Assembly (NCBI GenBank): GCA_021735045.1
Contig: JAIPHU010000007.1
Coordinates: 24,583 to 56,582 of the forward strand
Direction: 5' to 3'
Length of the DNA: 32,000 nt
DNA from: Candidatus Omnitrophota bacterium
GTDB lineage: Bacteria; Omnitrophota; Gorgyraeia; Duberdicusellales; 4484-171
Both the position numbers and the translations under genes were made by a program. Shown in pieces: positions 14,036 to 32,000 of the stretch. Below the pieces are notes generated by a model that was given only the letters and a program-made list of their open reading frames with translations, had not been told where the DNA came from and did not search any database. Positions within the stretch are counted from its first letter, which is position 1, and each line of letters starts with the position of its first letter.

Positions 14036-14050
14036 TTCTTTTACTTCTTT

Positions 14051-14080
14051 CACTTAGCGCTTTGCGCCCTGCGCTATGCT
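14051..14080. repeat. Right arm of the inverted repeat flanking the four-helix-bundle gene (overlaps the proA stop codon)
   Basis: CACTTAGCGCTTTGCGCCCTGCGCTATGCT. Its terminal 11 nt are perfectly complementary to 13635-13645. Confidence 0.65.
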
Positions 14081-18619: not shown

Positions 18620-19108
18620 TTATGAAGATTTTTTGAGAGAAGATTTTTTGGGAGAAGATTTTTTAGTTGTCTTTTTCTTAGTTGTCTTTTTTTTAGTGGG
18701 AGATTTCTTAGCTGTTGCTTTCTTAGTTGAAGTTTTTTTCGTCGTTTTCTTCTTATGAGTTGCTTTTTTAGTTATTTCTTTTTTGGAACCTTTAGTTATA
18801 TCGGAAATAATATCTGTAATTTTTATTGTAGTATATTTTTGACGATGTCCTTGTTTCCTTCGATATTTCTTTCTTCTTTTATATTTATAAACAATTACTT
18901 TTTTACCTTTTTTCTCTCCTTTAATATCAGCCTTTACCTTGGCCCCCTCCACATAAGGGGTTCCTATTTTAACTTTTCCCTGATTAGCTACCAGTAAAAC
19001 CTTATTAAAGGTAGTTTCCTTCGATACATCCTTTAATTTTTGGACATCCAAAATATCACCGGTTTGGACAATATACTGTTTTTTGGCTATTTCGACTACT
19101 GCAAACAT
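18620..19108 (-). CDS. rplU: 50S ribosomal protein L21 with a ~60-aa Lys/Thr/Ser-rich C-terminal extension
   Basis: MFAVVEIAKKQYIVQTGDIL...KVIVYKYKRRKKYRRKQGHRQKYT is canonical L21. The tail reads KKATHKKKTTKKTSTKKATAKKSPTKKKTTKKKTTKKSSPKKSSLKKSS. Confidence 0.9.
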   Translation of the reverse strand: MFAVVEIAKKQYIVQTGDILDVQKLKDVSKETTFNKVLLVANQGKVKIGTPYVEGAKVKADIKGEKKGKKVIVYKYKRRKKYRRKQGHRQKYTTIKITDIISDITKGSKKEITKKATHKKKTTKKTSTKKATAKKSPTKKKTTKKKTTKKSSPKKSSLKKSS

Positions 19109-19231: not shown

Positions 19232-19957
19232 ATGAGTAAAAAACTATATATTTTTCTACGAGATGACGATATTTACAGCTACGACCATAATTTTTTATCT
19301 ACTTTTAATCTTTTAAAAAACTATGAAATACCAGTAGTTTTAGGAGTTGTTCCTAAAAAAATAGAAAGGAAATTGGTTAATTTCTTAAATAAAGAAAAGA
19401 AAAATAACAGCTATCAATTCGATATAGCCCAACATGGTTGGTCTCATAAAAATTATAGCAAAGATATAAAAAATAAATACGAGTTCGGGCCCCTAAGAAA
19501 TTATCGGCAACAAAAAAAAGATATCACCAGAGGATATATCAAAATGAAACAGCTTTTTGGCAAAAATTTTACTCCTGCCTTTATTCCCCCTTATCATGGC
19601 TATGACCTTAACACTTTAAAGATAATCAATGAATTAAAAATTCCTTTATTTTCAGCCGGAAAAAAAATAATCTTAAAAAAAAGAAACTTCCTAAATTTAC
19701 CGGCTCAATTATCTCTAAATGACTACGGGCCAAAAGGCAAACCTCTCCAACTTACAGCTAAAACATTAATTAAAAGATTTTATTTTTCAATAAATAGATA
19801 TAAAATACTCGGTATGGTTTTCCACCATTATGTAATCAAAAACAAAAGACAAATAAAACAATTGGAAACATTTATTAAGTTTTTAAAAAGATTGGAAGAA
19901 AAGGAAATAACAAATAATACCCTTTTTACCTATATCCTTTCTAAAAAGATAAAATAA
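19232..19957 (+). CDS. Polysaccharide-deacetylase-like (CE4/NodB- or DUF2334-like) metal hydrolase
   Basis: FLRDDDI (Asp motif), QHGWSH (H-x3-H), FIPPY (R-x-P-Y-like). This is the order and spacing of CE4 motifs 1-3. Confidence 0.5.
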   Translation: MSKKLYIFLRDDDIYSYDHNFLSTFNLLKNYEIPVVLGVVPKKIERKLVNFLNKEKKNNSYQFDIAQHGWSHKNYSKDIKNKYEFGPLRNYRQQKKDITRGYIKMKQLFGKNFTPAFIPPYHGYDLNTLKIINELKIPLFSAGKKIILKKRNFLNLPAQLSLNDYGPKGKPLQLTAKTLIKRFYFSINRYKILGMVFHHYVIKNKRQIKQLETFIKFLKRLEEKEITNNTLFTYILSKKIK

Positions 19958-19989
19958 CAGCTAGAGATATTTTAAAATTTTATAACAAA

Positions 19990-21039
19990 ATGAATAGTTA
20001 TTTAAAGAACAACTTAATCTTTGATATTTTACAAGATAAAGTTACTCAAGGGCCTCAAATTGCTAATCTTTATATTAACTCTAACTGCAATCTTGGCTGT
20101 GAATACTGCTGGTTCCACTCTTTCTGGAATAAAAATAAACCAAAAAAGCAAATTATACCTTTATCTTTAATTAAAAAAAATATATTAGCACTCAAAAAAC
20201 TTGGCACAAAATATATAGTATTAAGCTCTCATGGTGAACCTTGGCTCCATCCAGAAATAACAAAAATCATTAATTTTATTAAAAAAAATGGTTTATTTTT
20301 ACGAATCACTACAAATTTAACTTTCAGCGATAAACAACTAAAGTTAGCTTTTGGCAAAGCTAACTTTTTAGCAGTAAATTTCTCTGCCCCCACTCAAAAA
20401 CTTTACTCAAAAATTCACAATCCTACTAAAACTAAAACCTATAATAATCTCATCTCTAACCTCAAGCTATACTCTATGCTTTATAAAAAAGTAGGCACTC
20501 CTTATCTAGAAGTAAGATATATAATCACTAAAAACAACTATAAATTTATACCAAAAAGTATAGAACTTGCCCGAAAACTAGATATTGGCCAATTAAGATT
20601 TCGGCTCCTGGATACCACAAGGTATACAAAAAAACTTTCTCTAACTTCTTTAGAAATTGCTAAACTTAAAAGAATAATAAAAAAGGTTAATTCTAAACAT
20701 TTTCCAGTAAAAACTAACTTAAAATCTTTATATAGTTATCTGTCAAAAGACAATACTATAAATTTTTCTCTCAACAGATGTTTTATCGGCTGGTTAAGAA
20801 TATCTTTAGAACTTAATGGGGATATAGGTTTTTGTTGCCAAAACGATAAATTAATATTTGGCAACTGGAAACGTGACTCAATAAAAAAATCCTGGTATAA
20901 TCAAAAAGCCCAAAAAATAAGATTAAAGTCTAAATATAATTTTGATATCAAAAAGGATTTTTGGAAATCTTGTAAATTTTGTTTTATCGAAAAAGACAAT
21001 AAAAGTATTGATTCAATACTTAAAAAATTTAAAAGATGA
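19990..21039 (+). CDS. Radical SAM enzyme with C-terminal SPASM/twitch-like Cys cluster (paralog A)
   Basis: CNLGCEYC (C-x3-C-x2-C), HGEPWLHP. C-terminal CFIGW..(x12)..GDIGFCC...KSCKFC. Confidence 0.8.
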   Translation: MNSYLKNNLIFDILQDKVTQGPQIANLYINSNCNLGCEYCWFHSFWNKNKPKKQIIPLSLIKKNILALKKLGTKYIVLSSHGEPWLHPEITKIINFIKKNGLFLRITTNLTFSDKQLKLAFGKANFLAVNFSAPTQKLYSKIHNPTKTKTYNNLISNLKLYSMLYKKVGTPYLEVRYIITKNNYKFIPKSIELARKLDIGQLRFRLLDTTRYTKKLSLTSLEIAKLKRIIKKVNSKHFPVKTNLKSLYSYLSKDNTINFSLNRCFIGWLRISLELNGDIGFCCQNDKLIFGNWKRDSIKKSWYNQKAQKIRLKSKYNFDIKKDFWKSCKFCFIEKDNKSIDSILKKFKR

Positions 21040-22079
21040 ATTTAGATAAATTAAGAATTTTAGGAGCCGCAAAAGACAAATTACTGGCTGGCCCAAAGTC
21101 AATATATATCGATATCAATACTAATTGTAATCTAAACTGTAATTATTGTTGGATTCATTCACCTTTAGTAAAAAAGCCCTTATATAAGAAACCCTTACAG
21201 CTTGAACTATCAGATATTATTAAAATTACAAAAGAAGCAGACAGATGGAATGCTGGAGAAATAGTAATCTCCGGTGATGGCGAGCCTACCCTACATCCAA
21301 ATTTTAAGAAAATAGTTAAATATTTAACCAGAAAACCGCGAAAAATATATTTAACTACAAATGCCACCTTCAAAAAAGATCTTCTTAGCTCAGTTGCCAA
21401 AATTAATTACCTCTATATAACCCTCTCTGCCCCAAGCCAAAAACTATACAATCAAATACAATCTCCTAAAAACAGCAATATTTATCAACAAGTAATAAGG
21501 AATATTAAAATACTTACCCAACTAAGAGATAAATATAACAAACCTTATATAAACTTAGCTTATATAGTCAACTCTACTAATTTTAGAAAAATTCCTGAGA
21601 TGCTTAAATTGGCTGAAGAACTAAAAATAGATAAAATAAATTTTAGAATAATGGAGCCAACAAAATATACGAAAAAATTACTTTTATCCAAAGAACAAAA
21701 ACTAAAACTTATAAAGATTATTTCCCAGTTGTTAAATAAAAAATTTTCGTTTCAGCATAACTTATCAGAAATAAAAAACGGGCTCACAAATCCCAAACAA
21801 AGCCCCTATCATATAAAACAATGCTTTACCGGTTGGTTTAATTTATTTATAGATTTTAATAAAAAAGTCGGGCTTTGCTGTCATAATGAAAAATTAATTA
21901 TTGGTGATTTAAAAAAAGAATCTTTAGAAAAAATTTGGCAAAGCAAAAAAGCTCAAAAGTTGCGCCTTAGATGTAAATATGAATTTGATATAAAAAAGGC
22001 TCCTTTTAAAGGAGAATGCGAATGGTGCCATTGGTATAAACAAAATCAAAAAATATATGAACAAATTAATGATAAATGA
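21036..22079 (+). CDS. Radical SAM enzyme with C-terminal SPASM/twitch-like Cys cluster (paralog B)
   Basis: CNLNCNYC, GDGEPTLHP. C-terminal CFTGW...VGLCC...GECEWC. Collinear with paralog A along the full length. ATGA start/stop overlap with A. Confidence 0.8.
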   Translation: MNLDKLRILGAAKDKLLAGPKSIYIDINTNCNLNCNYCWIHSPLVKKPLYKKPLQLELSDIIKITKEADRWNAGEIVISGDGEPTLHPNFKKIVKYLTRKPRKIYLTTNATFKKDLLSSVAKINYLYITLSAPSQKLYNQIQSPKNSNIYQQVIRNIKILTQLRDKYNKPYINLAYIVNSTNFRKIPEMLKLAEELKIDKINFRIMEPTKYTKKLLLSKEQKLKLIKIISQLLNKKFSFQHNLSEIKNGLTNPKQSPYHIKQCFTGWFNLFIDFNKKVGLCCHNEKLIIGDLKKESLEKIWQSKKAQKLRLRCKYEFDIKKAPFKGECEWCHWYKQNQKIYEQINDK

Positions 22080-23028
22080 GATACTAAAAGATATTAAAGA
22101 GATAACTTTTGAACTTACCAATCGCTGCAATTTAAAATGTAAAATGTGCGGCATTTGGCAAGAAAAACAAAAAAAAGATCTCGGTTTAAAAGATATTAAA
22201 AAAATTACAAAGACTTTCAATAATCCTTTAACCGTATCTCTTACCGGGGGAGAACCATTGCTTCATCCTGATTTTGATAAAATCTATAGGTACCTTTATA
22301 AATTATTTCTCCAAAAAAAATTAAAAAACATAGATATATCCACAAATGCTTACTCTAATGATATTGTTGATTTCCTTTCTGAAAATAAAAAATACCTGCA
22401 GCCTTTAACTCTTTCTATAAGTTTAGATGGTTTAGAAAAAAACCACAATAGACAAAGAGGTAAGCCAGATGCTTTTTCAAAAACGTTAAAAAATATTATA
22501 AAAATAAAAAAATATAATATTTTCCCTACTATAAAATTTGTGGTTACCGACCTTAACTATAAAGATATAGATAAAATCTATAGACTAGCAAAATCCCTAA
22601 ATTTAACATTCAATCCCAAGCTAGTTGAAAAAATAAATAACTATTATCACCGTTATGAAAATAATCAAGTTAGATTGCTATCAACAAAAAACTTTCCTTT
22701 TATTCTAAAATCAATAAATAAAATATTGAAAACACAAAAAGTCAAAAATAATAAAATAGAATATTTTTCATTTAACTGTTTAACAAAATATATTTCATCT
22801 GGAAATCTTAATTTTATAAAAAAATGCCTTACTCCTCAAAAATCTTTATTTGTTACCTCAAATAATAAAATTTACAGCTGTATCTACCAAGAAAATATTG
22901 GCACAATTCAAAAATGGCCAGAAATAGATAAAAATGAATATGATAAGATTGAAAAAAATGCCCAAAAAGGTAAATGCCCGAAATGCTTATCTTATCATGG
23001 ATACCTGAGAGAATTTAATGCCTCCTAA
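22057..23028 (+). CDS. Radical SAM enzyme (third, more divergent) with C-terminal Cys-rich auxiliary domain
   Basis: LTNRCNLKCKMCGIW, LTGGEPLLHPDF. C-terminal KKCL...IYSC...GKCPKC. Confidence 0.75.
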   Translation: MNKLMINEILKDIKEITFELTNRCNLKCKMCGIWQEKQKKDLGLKDIKKITKTFNNPLTVSLTGGEPLLHPDFDKIYRYLYKLFLQKKLKNIDISTNAYSNDIVDFLSENKKYLQPLTLSISLDGLEKNHNRQRGKPDAFSKTLKNIIKIKKYNIFPTIKFVVTDLNYKDIDKIYRLAKSLNLTFNPKLVEKINNYYHRYENNQVRLLSTKNFPFILKSINKILKTQKVKNNKIEYFSFNCLTKYISSGNLNFIKKCLTPQKSLFVTSNNKIYSCIYQENIGTIQKWPEIDKNEYDKIEKNAQKGKCPKCLSYHGYLREFNAS

Positions 23029-23920
23029 AAAAATAAAAATAACAATGGATAAACTTTACTGTATTAGAAAAACATACTACAGCCGTATCTATATAGTAGA
23101 AAATAATCCCTCCTATCTTTTAAAAGAACACTTTTTTCCCAATAAAATAATTCATGAATATAAGACACTAAAATTTCTAAGAAAGAAAAATTTTAATAAC
23201 ATCCCAGAATTCAAACTAATAAAAATAAATAATCGCCAATTTTTATCCTTAAAAAAATTAAATAAACCCTTTCTCTTTCCAAATAAAACAAATACACCGC
23301 AAATTACAATGCTGGCAAAAACAATAGCTAAATTACATAATATAAAAACCAATAAAACTCAAAAAGATTTTATCCAAATGAAAATTTCACGAATAAAAAA
23401 ACTTTTTTTTCAATATAAATTTATAGATAACTACTATAACAATCAACCAAATTTATCTTTACAAAAAACAATTCTCCAATACATAAATTTTATTATAAAA
23501 TTTGCAAAAAAAATCCCTTTACCTGCTCAAAATTTATCATTAATTCATGGAGAGTTATTTCCGGATTATTTCTTTTTAGAAAATAAAAAAATAAAAATTA
23601 TAGATTGGGAAAACTCTTGTTTTGGAGATCCAATGTATGACTTAGCAACTTTGTTTAACCAAAAAAACTTCCCGCAAAAAAAGTTTCTAACACATTACTC
23701 TGGATGTAACGATAAGCAGTATTTAACAAAAAAAATAAAACTTTATCAATTTTTAAAAACTTTGAACTCTTTATTATTTTCTATTTTAGATAGTATAATC
23801 TCAATAGATAATTTTAAAGATACAGCTGCTATCGGCGGAAAAAAAACCATCTATAGAAAAGAAATTTTAACTGAACTGAAAAAAATAAAAGAACTGTATA
23901 ATAGTATAAAAACAATTTAG
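23018..23920 (+). CDS. APH/choline-kinase/ThrB2-like phosphotransferase-fold protein with an atypical catalytic loop
   Basis: LIHGELFPDYFFL...KIIDWENSCFGDPMYDLA aligns with the family consensus IHGDLFPDNVL...IDWE....GDP..DLA. The true start may be the second Met (MDKLY, 23045). Confidence 0.6.
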   Translation: MPPKKIKITMDKLYCIRKTYYSRIYIVENNPSYLLKEHFFPNKIIHEYKTLKFLRKKNFNNIPEFKLIKINNRQFLSLKKLNKPFLFPNKTNTPQITMLAKTIAKLHNIKTNKTQKDFIQMKISRIKKLFFQYKFIDNYYNNQPNLSLQKTILQYINFIIKFAKKIPLPAQNLSLIHGELFPDYFFLENKKIKIIDWENSCFGDPMYDLATLFNQKNFPQKKFLTHYSGCNDKQYLTKKIKLYQFLKTLNSLLFSILDSIISIDNFKDTAAIGGKKTIYRKEILTELKKIKELYNSIKTI

Positions 23921-23931
23921 GAAAATAAAAA

Positions 23932-24633
23932 ATGTTATCTGAAATAACTAAAAAAATATTTTTACCTTATAAAAACAAAAAAATAGCTATTTTATCTTCG
24001 GCAGGCTTAGGGTCTAACTTTTTGAGTTATTTTTCAATTATTTGTGGCTGTAAAACTAAACTTTATTTTATAAAAGCAACTCATCCAGAACTAGATTCAT
24101 ATAACAAAAAAAGGATTAAGATGCTAAAAGAAATATCCTCTTTTTTAAACCAAAAAGCTTCTATCTTAGAACTATCACCCAAGCAATATATAAAATATTT
24201 TTTAAAATTAGACAGTTGCTACCCCGATGCATTCCTAGAAGATGAAGATACCCCTGCAATTTATTTTGCTTTAGATAAAATTAAAGAAAGATTTGTCTTC
24301 CATGGAATGGGCTTGAATGAAATGGAAAATTTATCTTATAAAAATGCAAAACTTTATGTAAAGAATCAAAGGATAAAAAATATTAATTTACATAAGAAAA
24401 TTTCTAGTTATACAAAAAAAGAGATTTTCTTTCCCTTTTTAGAAGATAAAGCAATTCTAGATTTATTTTTAGAATACAAAAAAAAAGAAACATCTATTAA
24501 AAAAATACTTCAACAAATTCTTGGTAATAAACTTCCTAAGAAATTAATAGTTCAAAAAAGCCAACACACCTATGTCCCCCAGGATATATTAAAAATTGTT
24601 GATAAAATACATAAGTTGAAAAAAGGTTTTTAG
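23932..24633 (+). CDS. Short asparagine-synthetase-C-terminal-like / PP-loop-like protein (tentative)
   Basis: IAILSSAGLGSNF resembles the AsnB PP-loop (LSGGLDSS). EIFFPFLEDKAILDL resembles AsnB E.R.PFLD. Only 233 aa, with no glutaminase domain. Confidence 0.35.
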   Translation: MLSEITKKIFLPYKNKKIAILSSAGLGSNFLSYFSIICGCKTKLYFIKATHPELDSYNKKRIKMLKEISSFLNQKASILELSPKQYIKYFLKLDSCYPDAFLEDEDTPAIYFALDKIKERFVFHGMGLNEMENLSYKNAKLYVKNQRIKNINLHKKISSYTKKEIFFPFLEDKAILDLFLEYKKKETSIKKILQQILGNKLPKKLIVQKSQHTYVPQDILKIVDKIHKLKKGF

Positions 24634-25793
24634 TTTTGGTATCTAGCAATAACTAAACTACAATTCCCTCCTCCGAAGCCAAAAGAATTATTTAATATCA
24701 GTTCAACTCTTTTTTTTCTAGCCTGATTCGGAACACAATCAAGATCACATTCAGGATCGGGAGTTTCATAGTTAATGGTAGGTGGAATAACGTTATCTTT
24801 TAAGGTAAGCATACAAGTTATAGCTTCAATAGCAGAAGCTGCTCCCATTGCATGTCCTAGCATAGATTTAATAGAGCTTACAGGTATCTTTTTATATTTT
24901 TCTTTACCGAACATTTTTTTTATTGCACGGCATTCTGCTTTATCATTTTTTACTGTCCCGGTACCATGAGCATTAATATAATCAATATCCTCAACGTTTA
25001 TCCTTGCATTTTCTAAAGCATCCCTCATACAAGATAATATACCTTTTTCAGAAGGTATCGTTGGATGGGTCGCATCCGCACTTAATCCATAACCTATAAT
25101 CTCTCCATAAATAAAAGCATTTCTTTTTTTTGCCGAAGATAGACTTTCTAATACTAACATACCTGCCCCTTCTGCAGGTATTAAACCCTTGCGATTTTTA
25201 TCAAAAGGCTGACATCTCAAGGGAGCTATCGAAAAAAGCCTGTGAAAGCCAATAAAGTTTGTTATTGAAAAAAAATCAGCAGCACCAGCTAAAATAATCT
25301 GCTCTTTTTTACTTTTGATTCTATCGTAAGCCAAACCTAAAGCATAATTGCCAGAAGCACAAGCATAACTAACAGTATAAGCAGAACCTGCCAGCCCTAA
25401 ACTATTGGCTAGGTTTGCGGTAGCCATATACATAGGATATTGCTTCTTATCATTGGTATGACCTTCTGTGAACTCTTCTCCACTACTAATAGTTCCTAAA
25501 ACTACTCCTGCACTACTGTCTTTGACTCCTGCATCCTCTAGGGCATAATTAGCAGCTGTGATTGCAAATTGGTGGGTTCTTGGAAGAAAGGATATATCTT
25601 TAGCAGAAGAAAGCTTAGGTAGAGAAAAATTTTTTACTTCGCCTCCATAATGCTTTTGTAACTTTGAGCTATCGAAAGAATCAACTTCACTTATTGCAGA
25701 ATTACCTTCGATCAAGTTAGACCAGAAATCATCAAGAGAAGATCCTAGCGAAGAAACAACCCCTAAACCAGTGACAACTACTCTCTCAGCCAT
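24630..25793 (-). CDS. Beta-ketoacyl-ACP synthase, elongating (FabF/FabB-type)
   Basis: VVVTGLGVVSSLG, YACASGNYA (Cys), DATHPT (His), INAHGTGT (His), SIKSMLGHAMGAASA, NSFGFGGGN. Confidence 0.85.
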   Translation of the reverse strand: MAERVVVTGLGVVSSLGSSLDDFWSNLIEGNSAISEVDSFDSSKLQKHYGGEVKNFSLPKLSSAKDISFLPRTHQFAITAANYALEDAGVKDSSAGVVLGTISSGEEFTEGHTNDKKQYPMYMATANLANSLGLAGSAYTVSYACASGNYALGLAYDRIKSKKEQIILAGAADFFSITNFIGFHRLFSIAPLRCQPFDKNRKGLIPAEGAGMLVLESLSSAKKRNAFIYGEIIGYGLSADATHPTIPSEKGILSCMRDALENARINVEDIDYINAHGTGTVKNDKAECRAIKKMFGKEKYKKIPVSSIKSMLGHAMGAASAIEAITCMLTLKDNVIPPTINYETPDPECDLDCVPNQARKKRVELILNNSFGFGGGNCSLVIARYQN

Positions 25794-26022
25794 TACTATT
25801 TAAAATATCTCTTACTAATTTTATCAATTCTTCTGAATTTTTCACATTAAAATTGTCTTCAGCAATAGTAATATTATATTTATTTTCTATGGCAAAAATT
25901 ATTTCTATTAAACTAAAAGAATCTATATCTAAATCACTAAACTCTTTTTTTATATCTATTCTTTCGGATAACTTAGCTACTTGAGTTATAATTTTAATAA
26001 TTTCTTTTTCTAGATTATCCAT
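25786..26022 (-). CDS. Acyl carrier protein
   Basis: 78 aa, acidic. DLDIDSFSLIEII contains the DS(L/F) phosphopantetheine-attachment motif. GGAGG lies upstream. Confidence 0.8.
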   Translation of the reverse strand: MDNLEKEIIKIITQVAKLSERIDIKKEFSDLDIDSFSLIEIIFAIENKYNITIAEDNFNVKNSEELIKLVRDILNSNG

Positions 26023-26028
26023 TAATTT

Positions 26029-26910
26029 TTAAACCTCCAAAAACATACAACTACTATTAGTATTATCTCCTAAATTAAGAAATATAACCTTTAGGTTTTC
26101 TTTATTTAATAAATTAATTTTGTTTTTTTTACTTAAAAATTTAAAAATCTGGATTAAAGGAGAACTTTTTTTCGTTTTACAGTCTAAATTAAAAAAATTC
26201 AGTTTTGAGATATCCCCAAACAAAGACAAAACATCTCTTTCTAAAAAATGCCTATCTGTACCGGGAATACCAGAACTAATGATATAGTCAATTTTTGTAA
26301 TATCCCTACAAGAATTATTTAAAATTCTTCTTAAAGCTTTTACTAAACCCTGATTTTTACCTTTAGATTCAAAATATTGAGAAATCATTAAATTTTTCCC
26401 ATAAGCTTTTTCACTATTTACAATAGAATGATTTTCTAAAATAAAACATACACTTGTTTGAAATGACTTCTTCCTATTAAAATTTTCATCTAACTCCAAA
26501 ACAAATGCTTTATTTTTTTTGTTTCTCTTTAAAAAAAGTATTGCTTGAGAAAAAGCATCTAGTCCAGAAGAACTACCCGAACAAAAAGTAGTAGCTACCT
26601 TTTTTATATTTAGTTTAATAGAAAGATCACAGCTTAAATAAGAAACTAAAGTTTTTACAAATTTATATGGTTCAACTTTCCGTATGCCTCCAGATTTATA
26701 ATCTTGATAAAATTCTTTTCTTAAAAAAAAATTATTAAATGTTGTTCCTACAAACAAACCTGAATTCAAAAAATCTCTCTGTTTAAATTTTAAATTACTA
26801 TCTTCTAAGGCAATTTTTATAGACTCTAAAGCAATATCTTCTCTACCAGCTATTTTTTTTGTTTTTTTACCTATCCCCATTACTGCATTATTCATAATAT
26901 ATTTTCTCAT
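26029..26910 (-). CDS. Truncated KS-like (thiolase-fold) protein retaining the Cys position but lacking both catalytic His
   Basis: ATTFCSGSSSGLDAF aligns with T.TACASG..A. IDYIISSGIPGTDRHFLERDVLSLFG aligns with IDYINAHGTGT..D..E..A....FG (His replaced by Ser). No DA.H.T motif. 293 aa. Confidence 0.55.
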   Translation of the reverse strand: MRKYIMNNAVMGIGKKTKKIAGREDIALESIKIALEDSNLKFKQRDFLNSGLFVGTTFNNFFLRKEFYQDYKSGGIRKVEPYKFVKTLVSYLSCDLSIKLNIKKVATTFCSGSSSGLDAFSQAILFLKRNKKNKAFVLELDENFNRKKSFQTSVCFILENHSIVNSEKAYGKNLMISQYFESKGKNQGLVKALRRILNNSCRDITKIDYIISSGIPGTDRHFLERDVLSLFGDISKLNFFNLDCKTKKSSPLIQIFKFLSKKNKINLLNKENLKVIFLNLGDNTNSSCMFLEV

Positions 26911-26921
26911 AAAAAAAATAA

Positions 26922-27923
26922 TTAATATCCATCTTCAATCAAACCATTAAAATGATATGGTTTATTTTTTGGCAAAGAGAAAAAAGACTTTTTTCCTAAA
27001 TCAGAATATAAGCAATTTTCTTTTTGGTAACAACTAAAACCTATTTTTTTTAAATTTTCTAAATACAGTTTATGGCTTACTGAACATCGTACTTCTTTAT
27101 ATTTTTGGCCAGTAGAGCGAGTAAAAATATCAGACAGCAATAAAAAAAAGACTCGAAAAAATTTCAAATCTATTACTATATCCACCAAATAAATAGAAGA
27201 TCTCCTTTTTTCTGCAATAATATAGCCTAATATTTTTTTATCTAAAACAGCAGTATAAATAGTATAATTATTATCTGGTTTATAAAAGTACTTCCACTCT
27301 AAAAAATCTGCATCTGCCTGCATAAGAAAGTAATACTGAGAAGAAACTCTCTTAAAGAAATGACTCATCATTTTTTTAGAAAAATCATTTTTTTTAATTT
27401 TTATCTTATCACTACTAAAATCTAATTTTGCAGCTAAAGAAAAAGGGCAAAAAAGATTATAAACCGTAGCAAGACTTCTCCATTTAATCTTTTTAAAGGT
27501 TTGTTCTATTTGATTATCGTTGGGAAAAGTCAAAAAAAAGTCTCTATCTTTAAAAAATTTTTTATACCCAGAAAAAAGACAAGAAAACAGCATAGGAAAT
27601 TCTTTTCTATAATCAGGATCAATCATTAAGTCACAACCTATAGCCCCTTTTATCTTTTTTGAGTTAAGCATACCCTCAAAAAGAATACTCCCTCCATATC
27701 CTACTATTTCATCTTTATTTTTTTTGATGATAATTGCATTAAAAGTTAAAGTTGGGTTAGAATAACTTCTATATCTTTCTTTTAAAAAATTCTTGCTTGC
27801 AGATGGAGAAAAAAATGAAAGGCCTCTACCCTGCATTTTTTTTATAAATTTATATAAATCATCCAAATCATCTCGGCTGCAGAGTTTTAGTTTAAAATTA
27901 AAAATATTATCCATTATTAACAA
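26922..27923 (-). CDS. GNAT-fold / FemAB-like (tandem-domain) acyltransferase (tentative)
   Basis: Two GNAT-like halves (IIIKKNKDEIVGYGGSI...; YTAVLDKKILGYIIAEKRRSSIYLVDIVI...) and an FLEWKY motif. By eye only. The ATG at 27914 (MDNIF) is an alternative start. Confidence 0.4.
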   Translation of the reverse strand: MLIMDNIFNFKLKLCSRDDLDDLYKFIKKMQGRGLSFFSPSASKNFLKERYRSYSNPTLTFNAIIIKKNKDEIVGYGGSILFEGMLNSKKIKGAIGCDLMIDPDYRKEFPMLFSCLFSGYKKFFKDRDFFLTFPNDNQIEQTFKKIKWRSLATVYNLFCPFSLAAKLDFSSDKIKIKKNDFSKKMMSHFFKRVSSQYYFLMQADADFLEWKYFYKPDNNYTIYTAVLDKKILGYIIAEKRRSSIYLVDIVIDLKFFRVFFLLLSDIFTRSTGQKYKEVRCSVSHKLYLENLKKIGFSCYQKENCLYSDLGKKSFFSLPKNKPYHFNGLIEDGY

Positions 27924-29007
27924 CTTGATTAATCGTATTTATTATTTCCTCAACCTCTTTTTCTTTTATAAAAGAAAAAAGAGGAAGCTGTATAGCTTGA
28001 TTATAATATTTATTACTAACCGGAAAATCTCCTTCTCTAAAAGCACTTAAATTTTCCATTAAATGTAAAGGAGTATAAGGCCTCTGCCAATTTATCCCCT
28101 TTTTTTCTAGATATTTTCCTAGCTTATTTCTTTTTTTAGAAAAAATGACAAAATTTTGAGGAATTGATAAATTATCTTTATTATCTTTAAATATCTTGAT
28201 ATCTTCTGCTCCTCCTAACCCCTTTTCATACCTATCCTTAGCTTTTATCCTTGATTCTATTATTTTTTTTAGATATTTAAACTTTACTTTAACCGAAGAT
28301 AAATCTAGAAGGTTTATTTTTGCAAACCTTTGTCCAGGTCTTAATAAAGCCTTATCATCTTTCCATATCTTTGTATAATCATTAATTTTACTATACTTGT
28401 CTTTATTAAAACAAACCATTCCTCCTCCGCCGCCACAAGACGAAAGTGGTTTATAGTAAGAAAAGGAAAAACAAGAAATATCTCCAAACACTCCTAGTTT
28501 TTTTCCTCTATATTGGGAGCTTTCCGCTTGACAGCAATCTTCAACTATAGATAATCCCTGTGTTTTGGCAATTTTTAAGATAGCCGGAATATTACCAGCT
28601 CGTGAAAACATATGAGCCATAATGATTGCTTTTGTGTTCTTTTTAATCTTTTTCTCTAATAAAGACTCATCTATTTGCAAATCTTCTTCTTTAGCATCAA
28701 CAAAAATCGGAGTAGCCCCCAAATAAATAACAGTTAAAGCAACCGCCGGATAAGTGATATTAGGCACTATCACACTGTCGCCTTTTTTAACTCCTACTGC
28801 TAAAAGAGCTAGTTGCAGCGCATCAGTGCCAGAGTTTAGGGCTATAGCATGTTTTGTTCCAATATAATGCGCAAATATTTTTTCAAACTCCCTTCTTAAT
28901 AAATCAACATCATTTAACCCCTCTATTCTTCTTAGGTCAATATCCAATTGTTTCTGGTACTCTTTTATCAAAGCTCTATCTATGCGCATATTTTCATATC
29001 TTACCAT
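27907..29007 (-). CDS. DegT/DnrJ/EryC1/StrS-family PLP-dependent sugar aminotransferase
   Basis: NSGTDALQLALLA, IVEDCCQA, SFSYYKPLSSCGGGG (PLP Lys). GAGGT SD upstream. Confidence 0.85.
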   Translation of the reverse strand: MVRYENMRIDRALIKEYQKQLDIDLRRIEGLNDVDLLRREFEKIFAHYIGTKHAIALNSGTDALQLALLAVGVKKGDSVIVPNITYPAVALTVIYLGATPIFVDAKEEDLQIDESLLEKKIKKNTKAIIMAHMFSRAGNIPAILKIAKTQGLSIVEDCCQAESSQYRGKKLGVFGDISCFSFSYYKPLSSCGGGGGMVCFNKDKYSKINDYTKIWKDDKALLRPGQRFAKINLLDLSSVKVKFKYLKKIIESRIKAKDRYEKGLGGAEDIKIFKDNKDNLSIPQNFVIFSKKRNKLGKYLEKKGINWQRPYTPLHLMENLSAFREGDFPVSNKYYNQAIQLPLFSFIKEKEVEEIINTINQVVNNG

Positions 29008-29017
29008 TTCACTTACC

Positions 29018-30046
29018 TCAACTATTTTTAATAAATATCTTATCCATTTTCTGAATTTTTATGCAAATATTTTTATAGGCTTCAAACTTTCCTTTCATTT
29101 TTGGGTTGTTTTGTTTAGCTAAAATCAAAGACGCATTGAAATTACTAAAATTCCGATAACTTCTTTTTTCCCCAAAAAAACTATCTACCTTTTTTAAATA
29201 ATTAATCATATTTTCTCTAAATATTTTAACTTTTCCTTTTGAAACTTGAAAAATAAAAAAAGATTTTCGCAACCTTTGAGGAAATGTTAAAAAAGTCCAA
29301 TTAGGTAATACACTACCATTGGGTTGTATAACCAAATCTATAGATTTTTTAATTATTTTACTGTAATCTTTACACACTAACTTGCCATTATAGCTTTTAT
29401 CATAGTCTAATACTTTCTTATAATTTTCAAGAAATATTTTACCCTTCTGATAAGTCCAATCAGCCATAAAAGCAGGATGAACTTCGATATAATTGAGGCC
29501 TAAATTTACTAAATATTTAAAGTTTTCAAACATTGATTCTACTTCTTGGGGACAAACCGTCATAGTAGGATTTAGGTCCAAATTATATTCTACAATCATC
29601 CTAATATTTTGCAAACACCCCTGGAAATTTTCCTTATCTAGGCCCCGCCTGTGTCGAGAAGTTACTGAAAACCCCCCATCTATACCCGGCTCAACTATCA
29701 CATTTTTTTCTTTTAAAAATTTTGCCTTCTCAATTGATAAAAGCAAAATATTAGTCTGTAAACTTATACTACTTTTCGGATACATTTTTCTTAAATATCT
29801 TATTATTTTCTTTGTATGCTGCCAACACAATAACGGTTCTCCTCCCGATAACACAAAACAATATTTTTTGTCTAATGGAAAAGCTTCTAATAGTTTTAAT
29901 AATGACTGGTAAGTTAAATTGGTATCTTTTTTCCGATCAGAGAAAAAACAGTAGTCGCAGTTAAGATTGCATTTATTGGTTACAAATATCCAAATGTTTT
30001 GGAAATTGACTGTTTTAAAGATCTTTTTTACTGTTGGACTATCCAT
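29018..30046 (-). CDS. Radical SAM enzyme (fourth), without an obvious C-terminal Cys cluster
   Basis: VTNKCNLNCDYCFF (C-x3-C-x2-C), LSGGEPLL. The C-terminal ~130 aa lack a Cys-rich motif. Confidence 0.75.
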   Translation of the reverse strand: MDSPTVKKIFKTVNFQNIWIFVTNKCNLNCDYCFFSDRKKDTNLTYQSLLKLLEAFPLDKKYCFVLSGGEPLLCWQHTKKIIRYLRKMYPKSSISLQTNILLLSIEKAKFLKEKNVIVEPGIDGGFSVTSRHRRGLDKENFQGCLQNIRMIVEYNLDLNPTMTVCPQEVESMFENFKYLVNLGLNYIEVHPAFMADWTYQKGKIFLENYKKVLDYDKSYNGKLVCKDYSKIIKKSIDLVIQPNGSVLPNWTFLTFPQRLRKSFFIFQVSKGKVKIFRENMINYLKKVDSFFGEKRSYRNFSNFNASLILAKQNNPKMKGKFEAYKNICIKIQKMDKIFIKNS

Positions 30047-31230
30047 TTTATTTTATCAATAGTGTTAGGCATTCCCTTAAACCAGGATTGCTTAACCTTT
30101 AAGGTTTTTTTAGAGCCTTTTAGAAGATTCGCTATGGCTTCCTCTAGGTTGGTAGGATTTAACTCTTTTCTCAATATTATTTCGGAAGGAATATAGTTTT
30201 TTGCTAAATCTGCTCTCCATCTTTGTTCTGAAGTATAATAAGGAACAATAATTGTTTTTTTTCGGTAATATAACAATCTGGCTATAGTATTATAACCTGA
30301 CATATTAACCGATAAGTCACAAGCTTTAAGATAAAAATCAAACTCTCTAGGATTAATAACTTTTTTTAATTTAGCATTTTTTATTTTTTTTGCTATTTTT
30401 TTATATTGTCTAAATTCATTGACTGTTGTGGCTGGCCCTGTTGAAACTAAAAAAAACAAATTTTTATTTCTTTTTGCTGTCAACAAAGCGGTTAATATTA
30501 TTTTTTTATTTACAATGCCTCCGCCTCGACTTACCAAAATTAACTTTTCATATTTATTTTTTAGCAATTTATTTTTTTGAGAAATAACTGCTTTTCTTTG
30601 GTTATCATTAAAGATAAAACCAGTAAAGCTAATCTTATCAGAAAAATCATCGAAAACATTATCCAATTCAATTACAGCTTTTTTATGAAGATATTTCAAA
30701 TAACCTTGGCAAAATACCTTAGGAGAATGTATTAGTAAATAATCATAATATTTTTTTATATTCTCATAGGTAAAATTAGAATAATTAAGATATCCGCTGC
30801 TTGCAACTATTTTGCATCCAATCTCATTTTTTAGATATTCCAATAAATAAGGCAGTTCAAACGTCCAAAATTCTTGGCCAAAAGGAAAATATTCACTGAT
30901 AAATAGATTCGGTTGAAACGTTTTTATCTTTTTTTTCATAAACCTCAACCGTTCTTTTAACATTACTTTAACCTTACTATTTTCAATAAACTTATTATAA
31001 ATACTCTCTTTTTGCTCAATAAATAACCCCTTTTTATCTATCGCATAAGGCATGATATCAACTTTTGCATATCTACCAAAGGGTAATATATTTTGCTTTT
31101 TGCCACTTTGTAAAACTAAAATTTTTATATTTTTGCCAAAATACTCTTTTAACCCCTTAACTAAAGAAAATACTCTAGTTGAATGCCCTAATGTGTTATA
31201 ATGGCTAAAATAAAAAACTAATTTTATCAT
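30028..31230 (-). CDS. GT-B fold glycosyltransferase or UDP-sugar hydrolase with a MurG/PseG-like (GT28-type) C-terminal domain
   Basis: N-terminal FYFSHYNTLGHSTRV (G-x-G-H-like loop), LVSRGGG, ACDLSVNMSGYNTIARLLYYRKKTIIVPY..EQ..RA. Confidence 0.6.
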   Translation of the reverse strand: MIKLVFYFSHYNTLGHSTRVFSLVKGLKEYFGKNIKILVLQSGKKQNILPFGRYAKVDIMPYAIDKKGLFIEQKESIYNKFIENSKVKVMLKERLRFMKKKIKTFQPNLFISEYFPFGQEFWTFELPYLLEYLKNEIGCKIVASSGYLNYSNFTYENIKKYYDYLLIHSPKVFCQGYLKYLHKKAVIELDNVFDDFSDKISFTGFIFNDNQRKAVISQKNKLLKNKYEKLILVSRGGGIVNKKIILTALLTAKRNKNLFFLVSTGPATTVNEFRQYKKIAKKIKNAKLKKVINPREFDFYLKACDLSVNMSGYNTIARLLYYRKKTIIVPYYTSEQRWRADLAKNYIPSEIILRKELNPTNLEEAIANLLKGSKKTLKVKQSWFKGMPNTIDKIKWIVQQ

Positions 31231-32000
31231 GATAGCTATTATTTTTTATACTCTTATAGTAATTACAGGATTTTTGACTATCTCCACCGACATTTTAAGA
31301 AAAAAGATAAAAAATAAACATCTTGTTTTCATTGCCGCTATAGCGATATTTCTATATATCTTTTTTGGGATAAAAGGAGACTTTAAAATATCTTTACCTT
31401 TGATTATAAATCCTGTTATTGCGTTAATGATAAGCCTTTTACTTTATTTTTGTGATATGTGGAAAGCAGGAGATGCAAAATTATTCGTTGTATATTCTCT
31501 GCTTGTATATAAAAATAACTACTCTGCTACTCTGCCTCTTTCTTGCTTTGTTATTTTTGTAAATACTTTTTTGATAAGTTTTATCTGTTTAATCCCTTAT
31601 ATTATAAAAAACATTATAGACAATAAGAATAAGATGCGCAAGAAAATACTCTCTAAAGATACACTTAAATATCTTTTAAAAATAATTCTAATAGCTTTTT
31701 CTATATCCTGGCTAATAAAACCAGTTCTTAGGTTATTGCCTTTTAAAAATATATTTTTTCTAGAATTTACCTTTATTTACCTAGGTTATTTATTTATTTA
31801 TAAATATATAGATAAAATAAAAAGTAAAAAAACTTTGCTAATATTAATATTTGCAATTGGGTTAATTACACGTTATATCCTAATGCCGGAATCTTTTCAA
31901 TTGGTCAATATCTCTGCCTATCTCAGGCGCATATTTCAATTTTCGTTACTTATTTATATAATAAGGGCAGTTATGAATATAGAAGAAAAAAAATCGGCCC
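31229..32000 (+). CDS. Prepilin-peptidase (A24, CpaA/TadV-like) polytopic membrane protein. Partial; continues beyond the right edge.
   Basis: Not in the ORF track. My translation from ATG 31229 is open to the window end: MIAIIFYTLIVITGFLTISTDILRKKIKN...MWKAGDAKLFVV. These are the two Asp motifs of A24 peptidases (D....I.N and G.GD.KL). Several hydrophobic segments. Confidence 0.6.
   Translation, partial: MIAIIFYTLIVITGFLTISTDILRKKIKNKHLVFIAAIAIFLYIFFGIKGDFKISLPLIINPVIALMISLLLYFCDMWKAGDAKLFVVYSLLVYKNNYSATLPLSCFVIFVNTFLISFICLIPYIIKNIIDNKNKMRKKILSKDTLKYLLKIILIAFSISWLIKPVLRLLPFKNIFFLEFTFIYLGYLFIYKYIDKIKSKKTLLILIFAIGLITRYILMPESFQLVNISAYLRRIFQFSLLIYIIRAVMNIEEKKSA

What the first reader, a model, noticed from the sequence alone, without database searches (positions are those of the whole stretch)
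19232..31230. Convergent 13-gene island: four radical-SAM enzymes, a private KS/ACP/KS-like set and amino-sugar tailoring enzymes, matching no pathway I can name
**Seen in sequence**
- The plus-strand operon has 6 genes: CE4-like deacetylase, three rSAM, an APH-like kinase and an AsnB-like domain.
- The minus-strand operon has 7 genes: GT-B, rSAM, DegT aminotransferase, GNAT/FemAB-like acyltransferase, KS-like, ACP and KS.
- The two operons are packed head-to-tail with 4-23 nt overlaps and meet at overlapping stop codons.

**Established parallels**
- DegT aminotransferase + GNAT + MurG-like GT-B is the PseC/PseH/PseG logic of pseudaminic-acid synthesis.
- GT followed by deacetylase followed by N-acylation is used in lipid A (LpxC/LpxD), mycothiol (MshA/B/D) and butirosin (BtrM/BtrD, with an ACP-borne side chain on BtrI).
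- GT + deacetylase + rSAM is used for hopanoid cyclitol ethers (HpnI/K/J).
- SPASM-type rSAMs acting on lipids are known (GDGT ring and tetraether synthases).

**What does not fit**
None of these pathways combines all the parts seen here. The window also lacks the expected companions: a sugar 4,6-dehydratase, a nucleotidyltransferase, MCAT/KR/DH/ER, a PPTase, a transporter or flippase, and any precursor peptide.

**Inference**
The island makes an amino-sugar-containing small molecule or glycolipid. The sugar would be N-acylated from a dedicated acyl-ACP and further remodelled by radical chemistry.
Basis: partly seen in the sequence, partly recalled or inferred. Interest (0 to 1): 0.85.

Follow-up and report, generated by a model that had tools for sequence, protein, structure and literature searches.

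The report
Tailoring genes beside a His-Xaa-Ser system
The 13 genes are real, but they are two separate recurring enzyme modules (a sugar/radical module and a fatty-acyl module) that in related bacteria always sit beside a ribosomally made His-X-Ser-repeat protein and its own leader peptidase, so they probably decorate that protein rather than make a free glycolipid.

Summary
Observation confirmed. All 13 ORFs, their domain calls, the 4-23 nt overlaps and the overlapping stop codons are as described, in a Candidatus Omnitrophica MAG.

Interpretation partly supported. The island is not one conserved unit.
- Module A is the CE4 deacetylase, three rSAMs, APH-like kinase, AsnB-like protein, GT-B, a fourth rSAM and DegT. 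It recurs in seven metagenome loci without any KS, ACP or GNAT.
- Module B is a double-GNAT, a truncated KS-like protein, ACP and KS. It recurs in Omnitrophota loci without module A.

In relatives long enough to show the flank, both modules abut a prepilin-peptidase-like (A24) membrane protein. That gene starts at window 31229 and runs off the window end. In 5 of 5 independent relatives with enough sequence, the A24 gene adjoins an HxsA3-type His-Xaa-Ser set: HxsB rSAM, an HxsD-like protein and an HxS-repeat precursor with an invariant DExG|F prepilin-like leader. CE4 lies on the far side of that set, or inside it.

The "missing precursor" is therefore probably just beyond base 32000. I could not verify this.

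The KS is 51% identical to anammox amxFabF2, the KS of a KS/CLF-like heterodimer.

Best reading: a radical, amino-sugar and N-acyl tailoring system for an HxS-repeat envelope protein. The chemistry is inferred.

The parts
19232..19957 (+). w01, a CE4/DUF2334 metal-dependent deacetylase (241 aa); module A
   Evidence: Pfam DUF2334 46.7 bits and Polysacc_deac_1 35.7 bits. The RDDD, QHGWxH and PPYH motifs are conserved in six homologues. Homologues at 35-55% identity occur in L026, L028, L029 and L032.
19990..21039 (+). w02, a radical SAM/SPASM enzyme (349 aa), paralogue of w03; module A
   Evidence: Pfam Radical_SAM + SPASM. 37% identical to w03. 62% identical to its L026 counterpart.
21036..22079 (+). 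w03, a radical SAM/SPASM enzyme (347 aa); module A
   Evidence: Pfam. The family has 145 representatives at E<1e-30, including fusions of 3-4 rSAM-SPASM units with or without a B12-rSAM. AF2 model pLDDT 85.9. Foldseek hits mix RiPP maturases and sugar rSAMs at TM about 0.6, and there is no RRE domain.
22057..23028 (+). w04, a radical SAM enzyme with a C-terminal Cys cluster (323 aa); module A
   Evidence: Pfam Radical_SAM 71 bits. NCBIfam best hits are PTO1314, MoaA and HxsC (64 bits, cut-off 268), none passing. It always lies next to w02/w03 homologues.
23018..23920 (+). w05, an APH/choline-kinase-like phosphotransferase (300 aa); module A accessory
   Evidence: Pfam APH 44 bits. Relatives occur in L027, L031 and L033. 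The Brenner-motif Asp is not conserved: HGE, HGH, NGE or HAD.
23932..24633 (+). w06, an AsnB-type PP-loop-like protein with a degenerate ATP motif (233 aa); module A accessory
   Evidence: No Pfam hit and no homologue in the word-indexed search. tblastn relatives in L031 and L033 carry TGGLDSS. The L033 protein hits Asn_synthase at 31 bits and the L032 protein at 63 bits.
24630..25793 (-). w07, an amxFabF2-like beta-ketoacyl-ACP synthase with an intact Cys-His-His triad (387 aa); module B
   Evidence: Pfam KS N+C. FabF equivalog 370 bits against a cut-off of 494. Best PDB match is 9s5h_B at 370 bits and 51% identity, against 276 bits for the best canonical FabF. 59-63% identical in L003, L009, L013 and L014.
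25786..26022 (-). w08, a dedicated acyl carrier protein (78 aa, DS motif present); module B
   Evidence: Pfam PP-binding 34 bits. A generic ACP by PDB search, not specifically amxACP-like.
26029..26910 (-). w09, a truncated KS-like, CLF-like partner lacking the catalytic Cys (293 aa); module B
   Evidence: Pfam KS N-terminal domain only, 32 bits. Four family members in 5.8 billion proteins. The catalytic position holds S, I, Q and Q. Best PDB hit is 9s5h_C, amxFabFmut. The AF2 model is too poor to use, pLDDT 49.
26922..27923 (-). w10, a divergent double-GNAT acyltransferase (333 aa; annotated start gives 330); module B
   Evidence: No Pfam hit. Only one non-self hit in the word-indexed search. 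31-35% identical in L002, L003, L009, L012, L013 and L014. Distant tblastn relatives carry Acetyltransf_9/_17. The GNAT motif-A RGxG is replaced by RKEFP.
27907..29007 (-). w11, a DegT-family PLP aminotransferase (366 aa); module A
   Evidence: Pfam 243 bits. PseC equivalog 166 bits against 423.5, not met. Best PDB hits are QdtB and glutamine:scyllo-inositol transaminase. 52-66% identical in L002, L026, L028, L031 and L033.
29018..30046 (-). w12, a radical SAM enzyme with no SPASM hit (342 aa), conserved neighbour of DegT; module A
   Evidence: Pfam Radical_SAM 65 bits. NCBIfam best hits are PapB, anSME and HxsB, all far below cut-off. PDB hits are CteB, anSME, ChlB and SkfB. It is adjacent to DegT in L026, L028 and L031, and separated from DegT by one GT gene in L033.
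30028..31230 (-). w13, a MurG-like GT-B glycosyltransferase (400 aa); module A
   Evidence: Pfam Glyco_tran_28_C 35.5 bits. 35-53% identical in L002, L026, L028 and L031.
31229..32000 (+). w14, an A24 (prepilin-type) peptidase-like polytopic membrane protein, truncated by the window end; the hub gene shared by module A loci, module B loci and Hxs sets
   Evidence: 27-46% identical to full-length homologues, which hit Peptidase_A24 at 21-26.5 bits against a cut-off of 26.5. Both catalytic-position Asp residues are invariant: D21 in TDxxxxKIxN and D82 in GDxKLF. It lies next to Hxs genes in L003, L009, L013, L026 and L028.

Best explanation
The 13 genes are two accessory tailoring modules of an extended HxsA3-type His-Xaa-Ser system found in Omnitrophota and related uncultured bacteria.

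**Shown**
- Module A (GT-B, rSAM w12, DegT, rSAM-SPASM w02/w03, rSAM w04, CE4, with or without APH and the AsnB-like protein) and module B (double-GNAT, KS-like, ACP, KS) are separate, recurrent gene sets.
- In relatives long enough to show the flank, each abuts the same A24 peptidase-like membrane protein.
- In relatives that gene adjoins HxsB, an HxsD-like protein and an HxS-repeat precursor with an invariant prepilin-like DExG|F leader.

**Inferred**
1. The window's own precursor, HxsB and HxsD lie just past base 32000.
2. The precursor is modified by rSAM enzymes and cleaved after the invariant Gly by the A24-like peptidase.
3. The amxFabF2-like KS and its CLF-like partner build a short or medium acyl chain on the private ACP.
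4. The GNAT transfers that chain to an amine. The amine is either the newly exposed N-terminal alpha-amine (the only obvious acceptor in loci that have module B alone) or an amino sugar.
5. Module A supplies that sugar. The GT-B adds a HexNAc, CE4 removes the acetyl group, and the conserved rSAM-DegT pair converts a hydroxyl to an amine through a ketone.

The predicted product is a heavily tailored, lipidated and/or glycosylated envelope protein. By analogy with the published HXS system it may be a periplasmic anti-phage barrier.
For: - **Module A without module B:** L026, L027, L028, L029, L031, L032 and L033.
- **Module B without module A:** L003-8, L009-12, L013 and L014.
- **A24-like hub:** the window plus L003, L009, L013, L026, L028, L030 and L033, with both Asp residues invariant.
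- **Hxs set beside the hub:** 5 of 5 independent loci with enough sequence.
  - L026 HxsB scores 397.7 bits against an equivalog cut-off of 370.
  - HxsD-like scores 43.6 against 50, and HxsA3 scores 46.4 against 65.
  - The L026 precursor ends in HSSHSSHS...HASHSSHASY.
  - The precursor leader is invariant across five lineages.
- **Nesting:** in L026 CE4 lies beyond the Hxs set. In L028 it lies between rSAM442 and the Hxs genes.
- **No sugar genes in module-B-only loci**. The acyl acceptor there can hardly be a cluster-made amino sugar.
- **Peptide-maturase affinities:** the best named relatives of w12 and w04 are PapB, anSME, HxsB and HxsC, all weak.
- **Literature:** HXS biology, including rSAM-dependent maturation and non-canonical N-terminal cleavage of HxsA, is described in PMC13128918.
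Against: - No Hxs gene is in the window. The rest of the 56.6-kb contig could not be reached.
- The module A families (GT-B, DegT, CE4, APH) are classic small-molecule or lipid-linked sugar enzymes.
- None of the window rSAMs has a recognisable RRE domain. The w03 model resembles sugar rSAMs (DesII, BlsE, viperin) as much as RiPP maturases.
- No protein reaches the HxsC cut-off in any locus. The HxsD-like and HxsA3-like matches are below cut-off.
- Published HXS systems have four genes and 99.7% are in Pseudomonadota.
- Conserved adjacency shows linkage, not a shared substrate.
Confidence: 0.55

Rival explanations
1. A free-standing pathway makes an amino-sugar small molecule or glycolipid. 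A lipid- or nucleotide-linked HexNAc is deacetylated by CE4, aminated through the rSAM-DegT pair, N-acylated from the private acyl-ACP by the GNAT, and remodelled by the rSAM-SPASM enzymes. The neighbouring Hxs genes are merely co-located envelope or defence genes.
For: - The enzyme families are typical of sugar tailoring.
- DegT and GNAT are translationally coupled here, and L002 carries GT-DegT-GNAT just downstream of a KS gene 3' end.
- A module A locus (L029) also carries GT1, GT2 and a PMT_2/ArnT-like GT-C. This resembles the ArnB/C/D/T logic for a lipid-linked amino sugar (own knowledge).
- The window rSAMs have no RRE domain, and the fold is as close to DesII and BlsE as to RiPP maturases.
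Against: - Module B occurs with the Hxs set and the A24-like gene but without any sugar gene in three or more lineages.
- Hxs genes are nested inside module A in L026 and L028.
- There is no NDP-sugar-forming enzyme, dehydratase, flippase or exporter in the window.
Confidence: 0.27
2. An unusual membrane-lipid pathway related to anammox 'Cluster I'. The amxFabF2-like KS with its CLF-like partner and ACP makes a special short acyl chain. The radical SAM enzymes remodel that chain, and the sugar enzymes build its head group.
For: - The KS is 51% identical to B. fulgida amxFabF2, and the best PDB hit of the KS-like protein is amxFabFmut.
- Cluster I also contains radical SAM chemistry.
- L002 has a B12-rSAM next to the GNAT.
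- Omnitrophota and anammox Planctomycetes are both PVC-group bacteria (own knowledge).
Against: - The window has no amxFabZ, phytoene-dehydrogenase homologue or B12-rSAM.
- The ACP is not amxACP-like.
- The rSAM module occurs without the KS module and the reverse.
- No lipid-assembly genes (for example acyltransferases to glycerol) are in the island.
Confidence: 0.1
3. An ordinary surface-polysaccharide, nonulosonic-acid (pseudaminic-acid-like) or flagellin/pilin glycosylation locus.
For: The top NCBIfam hit of DegT is PseC.
Against: - The PseC score is 166 bits against a cut-off of 423.5.
- No PseB, PseI or PseF, no Wzx/Wzy and no nucleotidyltransferase are present.
- Four rSAMs and a KS/CLF/ACP set are foreign to such loci.
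Confidence: 0.03

Closest known systems
HXS (His-Xaa-Ser) anti-phage system HxsABCD (Li et al., Nat Commun 2026, PMC13128918); NCBIfam TIGR03976-03978 and the HxsA3 variant NF038309
   Same: Relatives of this island sit beside a true HxsB equivalog, an HxsD-like protein and an HxS-repeat precursor. That precursor is probably N-terminally processed. In E. coli, HxsA likewise undergoes rSAM-dependent maturation and non-signal-peptidase cleavage.
   Different: - The window itself shows none of HxsA, HxsB or HxsD.
- No HxsC equivalog is present.
- The precursor is small, has a prepilin-like leader and shows no peptidoglycan-binding domain hit.
- The system has a dedicated A24-like peptidase plus 9-20 extra tailoring genes.
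- The phylum is Omnitrophota, not Pseudomonadota.
- A defence role is untested.
amxFabF2/amxFabFmut KS/CLF-like heterodimer of the anammox putative ladderane 'Cluster I' (PDB 9S5H/9S5I; bioRxiv 10.64898/2026.05.19.726425)
   Same: - w07 is 51% identical to amxFabF2 and keeps the Cys-His-His triad.
- It is encoded with an upstream inactive KS homologue and a private ACP.
   Different: - The partner is truncated (293 aa against 412) and only weakly similar.
- The ACP is generic.
- The window has no amxFabZ, PDH or B12-rSAM.
- The partner genes are GNAT and DegT.
RiPP-fatty acid hybrids in which a GNAT joins an ACP-borne acyl chain to a peptide amine (lipolanthines, goadvionins, selidamides). Recalled from own knowledge, not tested here.
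   Same: The logic of ribosomal precursor + leader protease + private KS/ACP + GNAT, as inferred for the module-B-only loci.
   Different: - No lanthipeptide or avionin enzymes are present.
- The KS is type II and CLF-like, not a type I PKS.
- The acceptor is unknown.
- No sequence relationship has been shown.
Amino-sugar N-acyl logic: butirosin (BtrN rSAM dehydrogenase + BtrS DegT transaminase, BtrM GT, BtrD deacetylase, BtrI ACP), tunicamycin (TunB rSAM, TunC GNAT, TunD GT, TunE deacetylase, TunK ACP) and Arn (ArnB, ArnC, ArnD, ArnT). Recalled from own knowledge.
   Same: - A conserved rSAM-DegT neighbour pair.
- GT + deacetylase + N-acyl transfer from an ACP.
- DegT hits 2-deoxy-scyllo-inosose and scyllo-inositol transaminases in the PDB.
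- A GT2 plus PMT_2 GT-C in L029.
   Different: - There is no 2-DOI synthase, no UDP-GlcNAc 5,6-dehydratase and no ArnA.
- w12 has no SPASM/twitch hit.
- No equivalog score is reached.
Type IV pilin / Flp prepilin processing by A24 aspartyl peptidases (PilD, TadV, FlaK)
   Same: - Two invariant Asp residues lie in TDxxxxKIxN and GDxKLF contexts.
- The candidate substrate has a basic leader ending in Gly, then Phe and a hydrophobic stretch, with Glu at +5 in 3 of 5 sequences.
   Different: - Pfam scores are at or below the gathering threshold.
- The protein has no methyltransferase domain and carries an extra C-terminal membrane region.
- No pilus assembly genes lie nearby.

Membership tests
HXS / His-Xaa-Ser system | HxS-repeat precursor (HxsA, HxsA3) | tested here: not met
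   Within the window there is no HxS x3, DExGF or LKIGLG motif in any frame and no tblastn hit. In relatives the HxsA3 model scores 46.4, 35.6 and 17.5 bits against a cut-off of 65, although the HxS repeats are visible in L026. The region beyond base 32000 cannot be tested.
HXS / His-Xaa-Ser system | HxsB radical SAM maturase (TIGR03978) | tested here: not met
   In the window, w12 scores 64.9 bits and w04 54.5 bits against a cut-off of 370. In the neighbouring loci of relatives, L026 scores 397.7 bits and passes. L003, L009, L013 and L028 are 48-62% identical to it.
HXS / His-Xaa-Ser system | HxsC radical SAM adjacent to HxsB (TIGR03977) | tested here: not met
   The best scores are w04 at 64.3 bits and L026 rSAM442 at 41.6 bits, against a cut-off of 267.9.
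HXS / His-Xaa-Ser system | HxsD (TIGR03976) | tested here: inconclusive
   None is in the window. The L026 protein scores 43.6 bits against a cut-off of 50. Pfam HxsD is precomputed for L003 and L009.
HXS / His-Xaa-Ser system | Anti-phage activity | not testable with these tools
   This needs a phage challenge of an expressing host.
KS/CLF-type heterodimer (amxFabF-het / type II PKS-like) | Active KS with a Cys-His-His triad | tested here: met
   The alignment to 9s5h_B keeps the motifs yaCasgn, aHgtgt and mlgHamg.
KS/CLF-type heterodimer (amxFabF-het / type II PKS-like) | Adjacent KS homologue lacking the catalytic Cys | tested here: met
   The position aligned to the Val of amxFabFmut is S (window), I, Q and Q in the four family members. 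Only the N-terminal KS domain is detectable.
KS/CLF-type heterodimer (amxFabF-het / type II PKS-like) | Physical heterodimer and chain-length control | not testable with these tools
   The AF2 monomer of the KS-like protein is unreliable (pLDDT 49).
Anammox ladderane 'Cluster I' | amxFabZ, phytoene-dehydrogenase homologue, B12-dependent rSAM and amxACP | tested here: not met
   No FabZ, PDH or B12-binding domain is in the window. The ACP scores only 23 bits to amxACP.
Pseudaminic acid pathway (PseB, C, H, G, I, F) | PseC equivalog plus PseB, PseI and PseF | tested here: not met
   PseC scores 166.4 bits against 423.5. No dehydratase, synthase or cytidylyltransferase belonging to the island is present.
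2-deoxystreptamine aminoglycoside (butirosin-type) | 2-DOI synthase; BtrN-type rSAM with an auxiliary cluster | tested here: not met
   No DHQ-synthase-like gene is present. w12 has no SPASM hit.
Hopanoid side-chain tailoring (HpnH, I, J, K) | HpnH equivalog (TIGR03470) | tested here: not met
   The scores are 38-49 bits against a cut-off of 225.
A24 prepilin peptidase | Two catalytic Asp residues in conserved motifs; Pfam PF01478 | tested here: inconclusive
   Both Asp residues are invariant. Pfam scores are 21.3, 24.0 and 26.5 bits against a cut-off of 26.5 for full-length homologues, and the truncated window copy gets no hit.

The most novel reading that the evidence does not exclude
Omnitrophota and related uncultured bacteria encode a previously undescribed class of ribosomal envelope proteins. 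These are prepilin-like His-X-Ser-repeat precursors, released by a dedicated A24 peptidase. They are then N-acylated from a private amxFabF-type KS/CLF/ACP line and decorated with radical-SAM-remodelled amino sugars. This would be a hyper-tailored relative of the HXS anti-phage effector. It would also provide the first non-anammox context for the 'ladderane cluster' KS/CLF pair.
Probability: 0.35. Interest if true: 0.85.

Novelty: new variant of a known kind. Interest (0 to 1): 0.7.

Why it matters
- **HXS systems.** If the linkage is functional, the recently described HXS defence system extends from a four-gene proteobacterial cassette to a modular platform. That platform adds a leader peptidase, protein lipidation and glycosylation, and up to ten or more radical SAM enzymes, in a phylum of mostly uncultured ultra-small bacteria.
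- **Ladderane enzymology.** The amxFabF2/amxFabFmut-type ketosynthase pair, so far discussed only for ladderane lipids, occurs in a different and simpler genetic context (GNAT + ACP). That context could be reconstituted in E. coli. It offers a handle on an enzyme pair that cannot be studied genetically in anammox bacteria.
- **Scanning method.** A 'missing precursor' can be an artefact of the window edge.

Tried and rejected
- **Rest of the MAG contig.** I could not reach it.
  - The genome-contig scan returned only relatives.
  - Exact-protein look-ups found only a 5.2-kb Logan contig or nothing.
- **NCBIfam equivalogs.** None of the 13 proteins reaches a curated cut-off.
- **PDB sequence searches of the rSAMs.** They gave only generic hits.
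- **Foldseek of a good w03 model.** It could not separate peptide-modifying from sugar-modifying rSAMs.
- **AF2 model of the KS-like protein.** It was too poor to search.
- **First metagenome scan.** The 16-sequence alignment had no usable conserved stretch. A 6-sequence alignment worked.
- **Promoter and terminator scans.** They equal the shuffled background and say nothing about operon structure.
- **Literature searches.** Searches for Omnitrophota BGCs, lipo-RiPP terms and HxsA3/prepilin terms found no description of this gene set.
- **Models considered and rejected.**
  - An O-antigen or Pse locus: the equivalog scores fail and the companion genes are absent.
  - A butirosin-type aminoglycoside: there is no 2-DOI synthase.
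  - Hopanoid tailoring: the HpnH scores are far below cut-off.

Full report
**1. Observation**

The window carries the 13 ORFs exactly as reported. Junctions are overlaps of 4-23 nt or gaps of 6-32 nt. The two operons end on overlapping stop codons at 24630-24633.

Pfam confirms these calls above the gathering score:
- CE4/DUF2334
- two Radical_SAM+SPASM proteins, which are 37% identical paralogues
- two further Radical_SAM proteins
- APH
- a full KS
- an ACP
- a protein with only the N-terminal KS domain
- DegT
- Glyco_tran_28_C

Two proteins have no Pfam hit.
- The 333-aa protein is a divergent double-GNAT. Distant tblastn relatives (E down to 1.7e-13) carry Acetyltransf_9/_17.
- The 233-aa protein belongs to an Asn_synthase/PP-loop family, shown through relatives in L031, L033 and L032. 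Its own ATP motif is degenerate.

No NCBIfam equivalog cut-off is reached by any of the 13 proteins. The source is an NCBI MAG named Candidatus Omnitrophica bacterium, locus tags K9M00_02965 and K9M00_02985, on a contig of 56,582 bp. The upstream 19 kb is housekeeping. The island has lower G+C (0.23-0.34, mostly 0.26-0.29) than the upstream flank (0.30-0.37).

**2. The island is two modules, not one unit**

The KS-like protein and the GNAT are extremely rare: 4 and 2 hits among 5.8 billion proteins. Their homologues lie in a fixed block, GNAT / KS-like / ACP / KS. This block occurs in Omnitrophota MAGs and metagenome contigs (L003-L014), with no GT, DegT, CE4 or w02-w04 homologue nearby.

Conversely, I built a profile of the w03 rSAM-SPASM family. 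That family has 145 representatives at E<1e-30, including giant fusions of 3-4 such units. The profile retrieved metagenome loci L026-L034. These hold homologues of w02, w03, w04, w12, DegT (52-66%), GT (35-53%), CE4 (35-55%), APH and the AsnB-like protein. They hold no KS, ACP, KS-like protein or GNAT.

- The plus-strand operon therefore travels with the GT-rSAM-DegT half of the minus-strand operon (module A).
- The acyl block (module B) is independent.
- L002 is a second case of the mixed form: GT-DegT-GNAT-B12-rSAM just downstream of a KS gene 3' end.

**3. The hub and what lies beside it**

A 14th gene starts at 31229, overlapping the GT start codon on the opposite strand, and runs off the window.
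- Its full-length homologues (27-46% identity) give borderline Peptidase_A24 hits.
- They keep two invariant Asp residues, in TDxxxxKIxN and GDxKLF contexts.
- The gene sits at the edge of module B in L003, L009 and L013, and at the edge of module A in L026, L028, L030 and L033.

On its other side, five of five independent loci with enough sequence carry a conserved set:
- a secreted protein of about 150 aa
- an HxsD-like protein
- a protein of about 80 aa
- a 461-472-aa rSAM
- a 89-138-aa protein
- usually a Cys-rich secreted protein

The L026 rSAM passes the HxsB equivalog cut-off (397.7 against 370). The HxsD and HxsA3 models match below cut-off.

The L026 small protein reads MKKSKKNKFNNLKKDIKDFIKDEKG|FVSKENILKIGLGTISALGIMS...HSSHSSHS...HASHSSHASY. 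Its leader, K..F..DE.GF..K..LK.G.G, is invariant across five lineages. It looks like a class III (prepilin-type) signal.

In L026 the CE4 gene lies beyond the Hxs genes. In L028 it lies between them and the A24/rSAM442 pair. The Hxs set is therefore nested within module A.

**4. Relation to published work**

HXS was shown in 2026 to be an anti-phage system. HxsB, HxsC and HxsD mature HxsA by a +8 Da modification and a non-canonical N-terminal cleavage. Mature HxsA then acts in the periplasm. Of the systems found, 99.7% are in Pseudomonadota and 99.8% have four genes (PMC13128918). I found no paper describing an HXS-type set with a dedicated peptidase or with glyco/acyl modules.

The window KS has its best PDB match, by a wide margin, to chain B of 9S5H (370 bits and 51% identity, against 276 bits for the best canonical FabF). 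The best PDB hit of the KS-like profile is chain C of the same entry. 9S5H is the Brocadia fulgida amxFabF2/amxFabFmut heterodimer from the putative ladderane Cluster I. It is a KS/CLF-like pair that decarboxylates malonyl-ACP and prefers C6-C8 substrates (bioRxiv 10.64898/2026.05.19.726425). At the position of the catalytic Cys, the KS-like family has S, I, Q and Q. The ACP is generic.

**5. Most likely mechanism**

Shown: the two modules, the hub gene and the conserved Hxs neighbourhood in relatives.

Inferred:
- The window's own precursor, HxsB and HxsD lie just past base 32000.
- The A24-like enzyme cleaves after the invariant Gly.
- The KS/CLF-like pair builds a short or medium acyl-ACP.
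- The GNAT transfers the acyl chain to an amine. In loci with module B only, the exposed N-terminal amine is the only obvious acceptor. Here the 17-nt DegT/GNAT overlap suggests an amino sugar instead.
- In module A, the GT-B adds a HexNAc, CE4 deacetylates it, and the conserved w12-DegT pair turns a hydroxyl into an amine. The rSAM-SPASM paralogues perform further radical tailoring.

I put the system-level link at about 0.55. Each individual chemical step rates well below that.

**6. Rivals**

- The free glycolipid or small-molecule reading keeps about 0.27. The enzyme families are classic sugar enzymes. No RRE domain is present. Foldseek of a confident w03 model (pLDDT 85.9) is equally close to SuiB, SkfB and anSME and to DesII, BlsE and viperin. 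L029 adds GT1, GT2 and a PMT_2-type GT-C, which recalls the Arn logic.
- A ladderane-like lipid pathway rates about 0.1.
- An ordinary Pse or O-antigen locus rates about 0.03. The PseC score is 166 against 423.5, and no companion genes are present.

**7. Limits**

- The rest of the contig was unreachable.
- The KS-like AF2 model was unusable.
- Promoter and terminator scans were at background level.
- The taxonomy of the metagenome loci is unknown.
- Counts of independent loci are small.

**8. Verdict**

This is a new, much-elaborated variant of a known kind (HXS-type rSAM-matured protein systems). It contains an amxFabF-type KS/CLF pair outside anammox bacteria.

Noticed in passing
window 31228-31231: The start codons of the divergent GT (minus strand, ATG at 31230) and the A24-like gene (plus strand, ATG at 31229) overlap by 2 nt. 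There is no intergenic promoter region, so each promoter must lie inside the other gene. In L026 the corresponding divergent pair has a 67-bp gap, though the minus-strand gene there is w12, not the GT.
   Followed up: partly
window 18620-19108 (-): Ribosomal protein L21-like ORF with a roughly 60-residue Lys/Thr/Ser-rich C-terminal tail (KKKTTKKTSTKKATAKK...).
   Followed up: no
window 23932-24633 (+): The AsnB/PP-loop-like protein has SSAGLGS where relatives have the canonical TGGLDSS. The ATP-pyrophosphatase Asp is replaced by Gly, so the protein may be catalytically inactive or repurposed.
   Followed up: partly
window 23018-23920 (+) and homologues in L027, L031, L033: In this APH-like family the Brenner-motif catalytic Asp is not conserved (HGE, HGH, NGE, HAD), whereas the IDWE motif is (IDLT in the L033 copy). 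The proteins may not be conventional kinases.
   Followed up: partly
L060 5944-19705 and L076 1893-15651: These metagenome contigs carry arrays of about ten tandem rSAM-SPASM paralogues plus a DegT fragment. In L034 five consecutive ORFs of 782-959 aa include rSAM-containing fusion proteins, and one of them contains a CE4 domain.
   Followed up: no
L026 16465-16917 (-), L013 5204-5683 (+), L003 4373-4852 (+): A conserved secreted protein of about 150 aa, with a TTYYPAPYGVY motif in L026 and L013, is always the first gene of the Hxs-like set. A Cys-rich secreted protein of 240-280 aa lies between the precursor and the A24-like gene. Neither has a family assignment.
   Followed up: no
window 6015-7010 and 7015-7956 (-): Two tandem galactose-1-phosphate uridylyltransferase-like (GalT/HIT) genes, with a phosphoglucomutase further on at 11517-12920. 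These are the only nucleotide-sugar-related genes in the window, 7-13 kb from the island.
   Followed up: no
window 13673-14053 (-): A 23S rRNA intervening-sequence protein family gene (PF05635) lies among the housekeeping genes.
   Followed up: no
P0005, P0006 (KS-like homologues; L009, L012): Two of the four KS-like proteins have Gln at the position of the catalytic Cys, as in type II PKS chain-length factors (KSQ). The window copy has Ser.
   Followed up: partly
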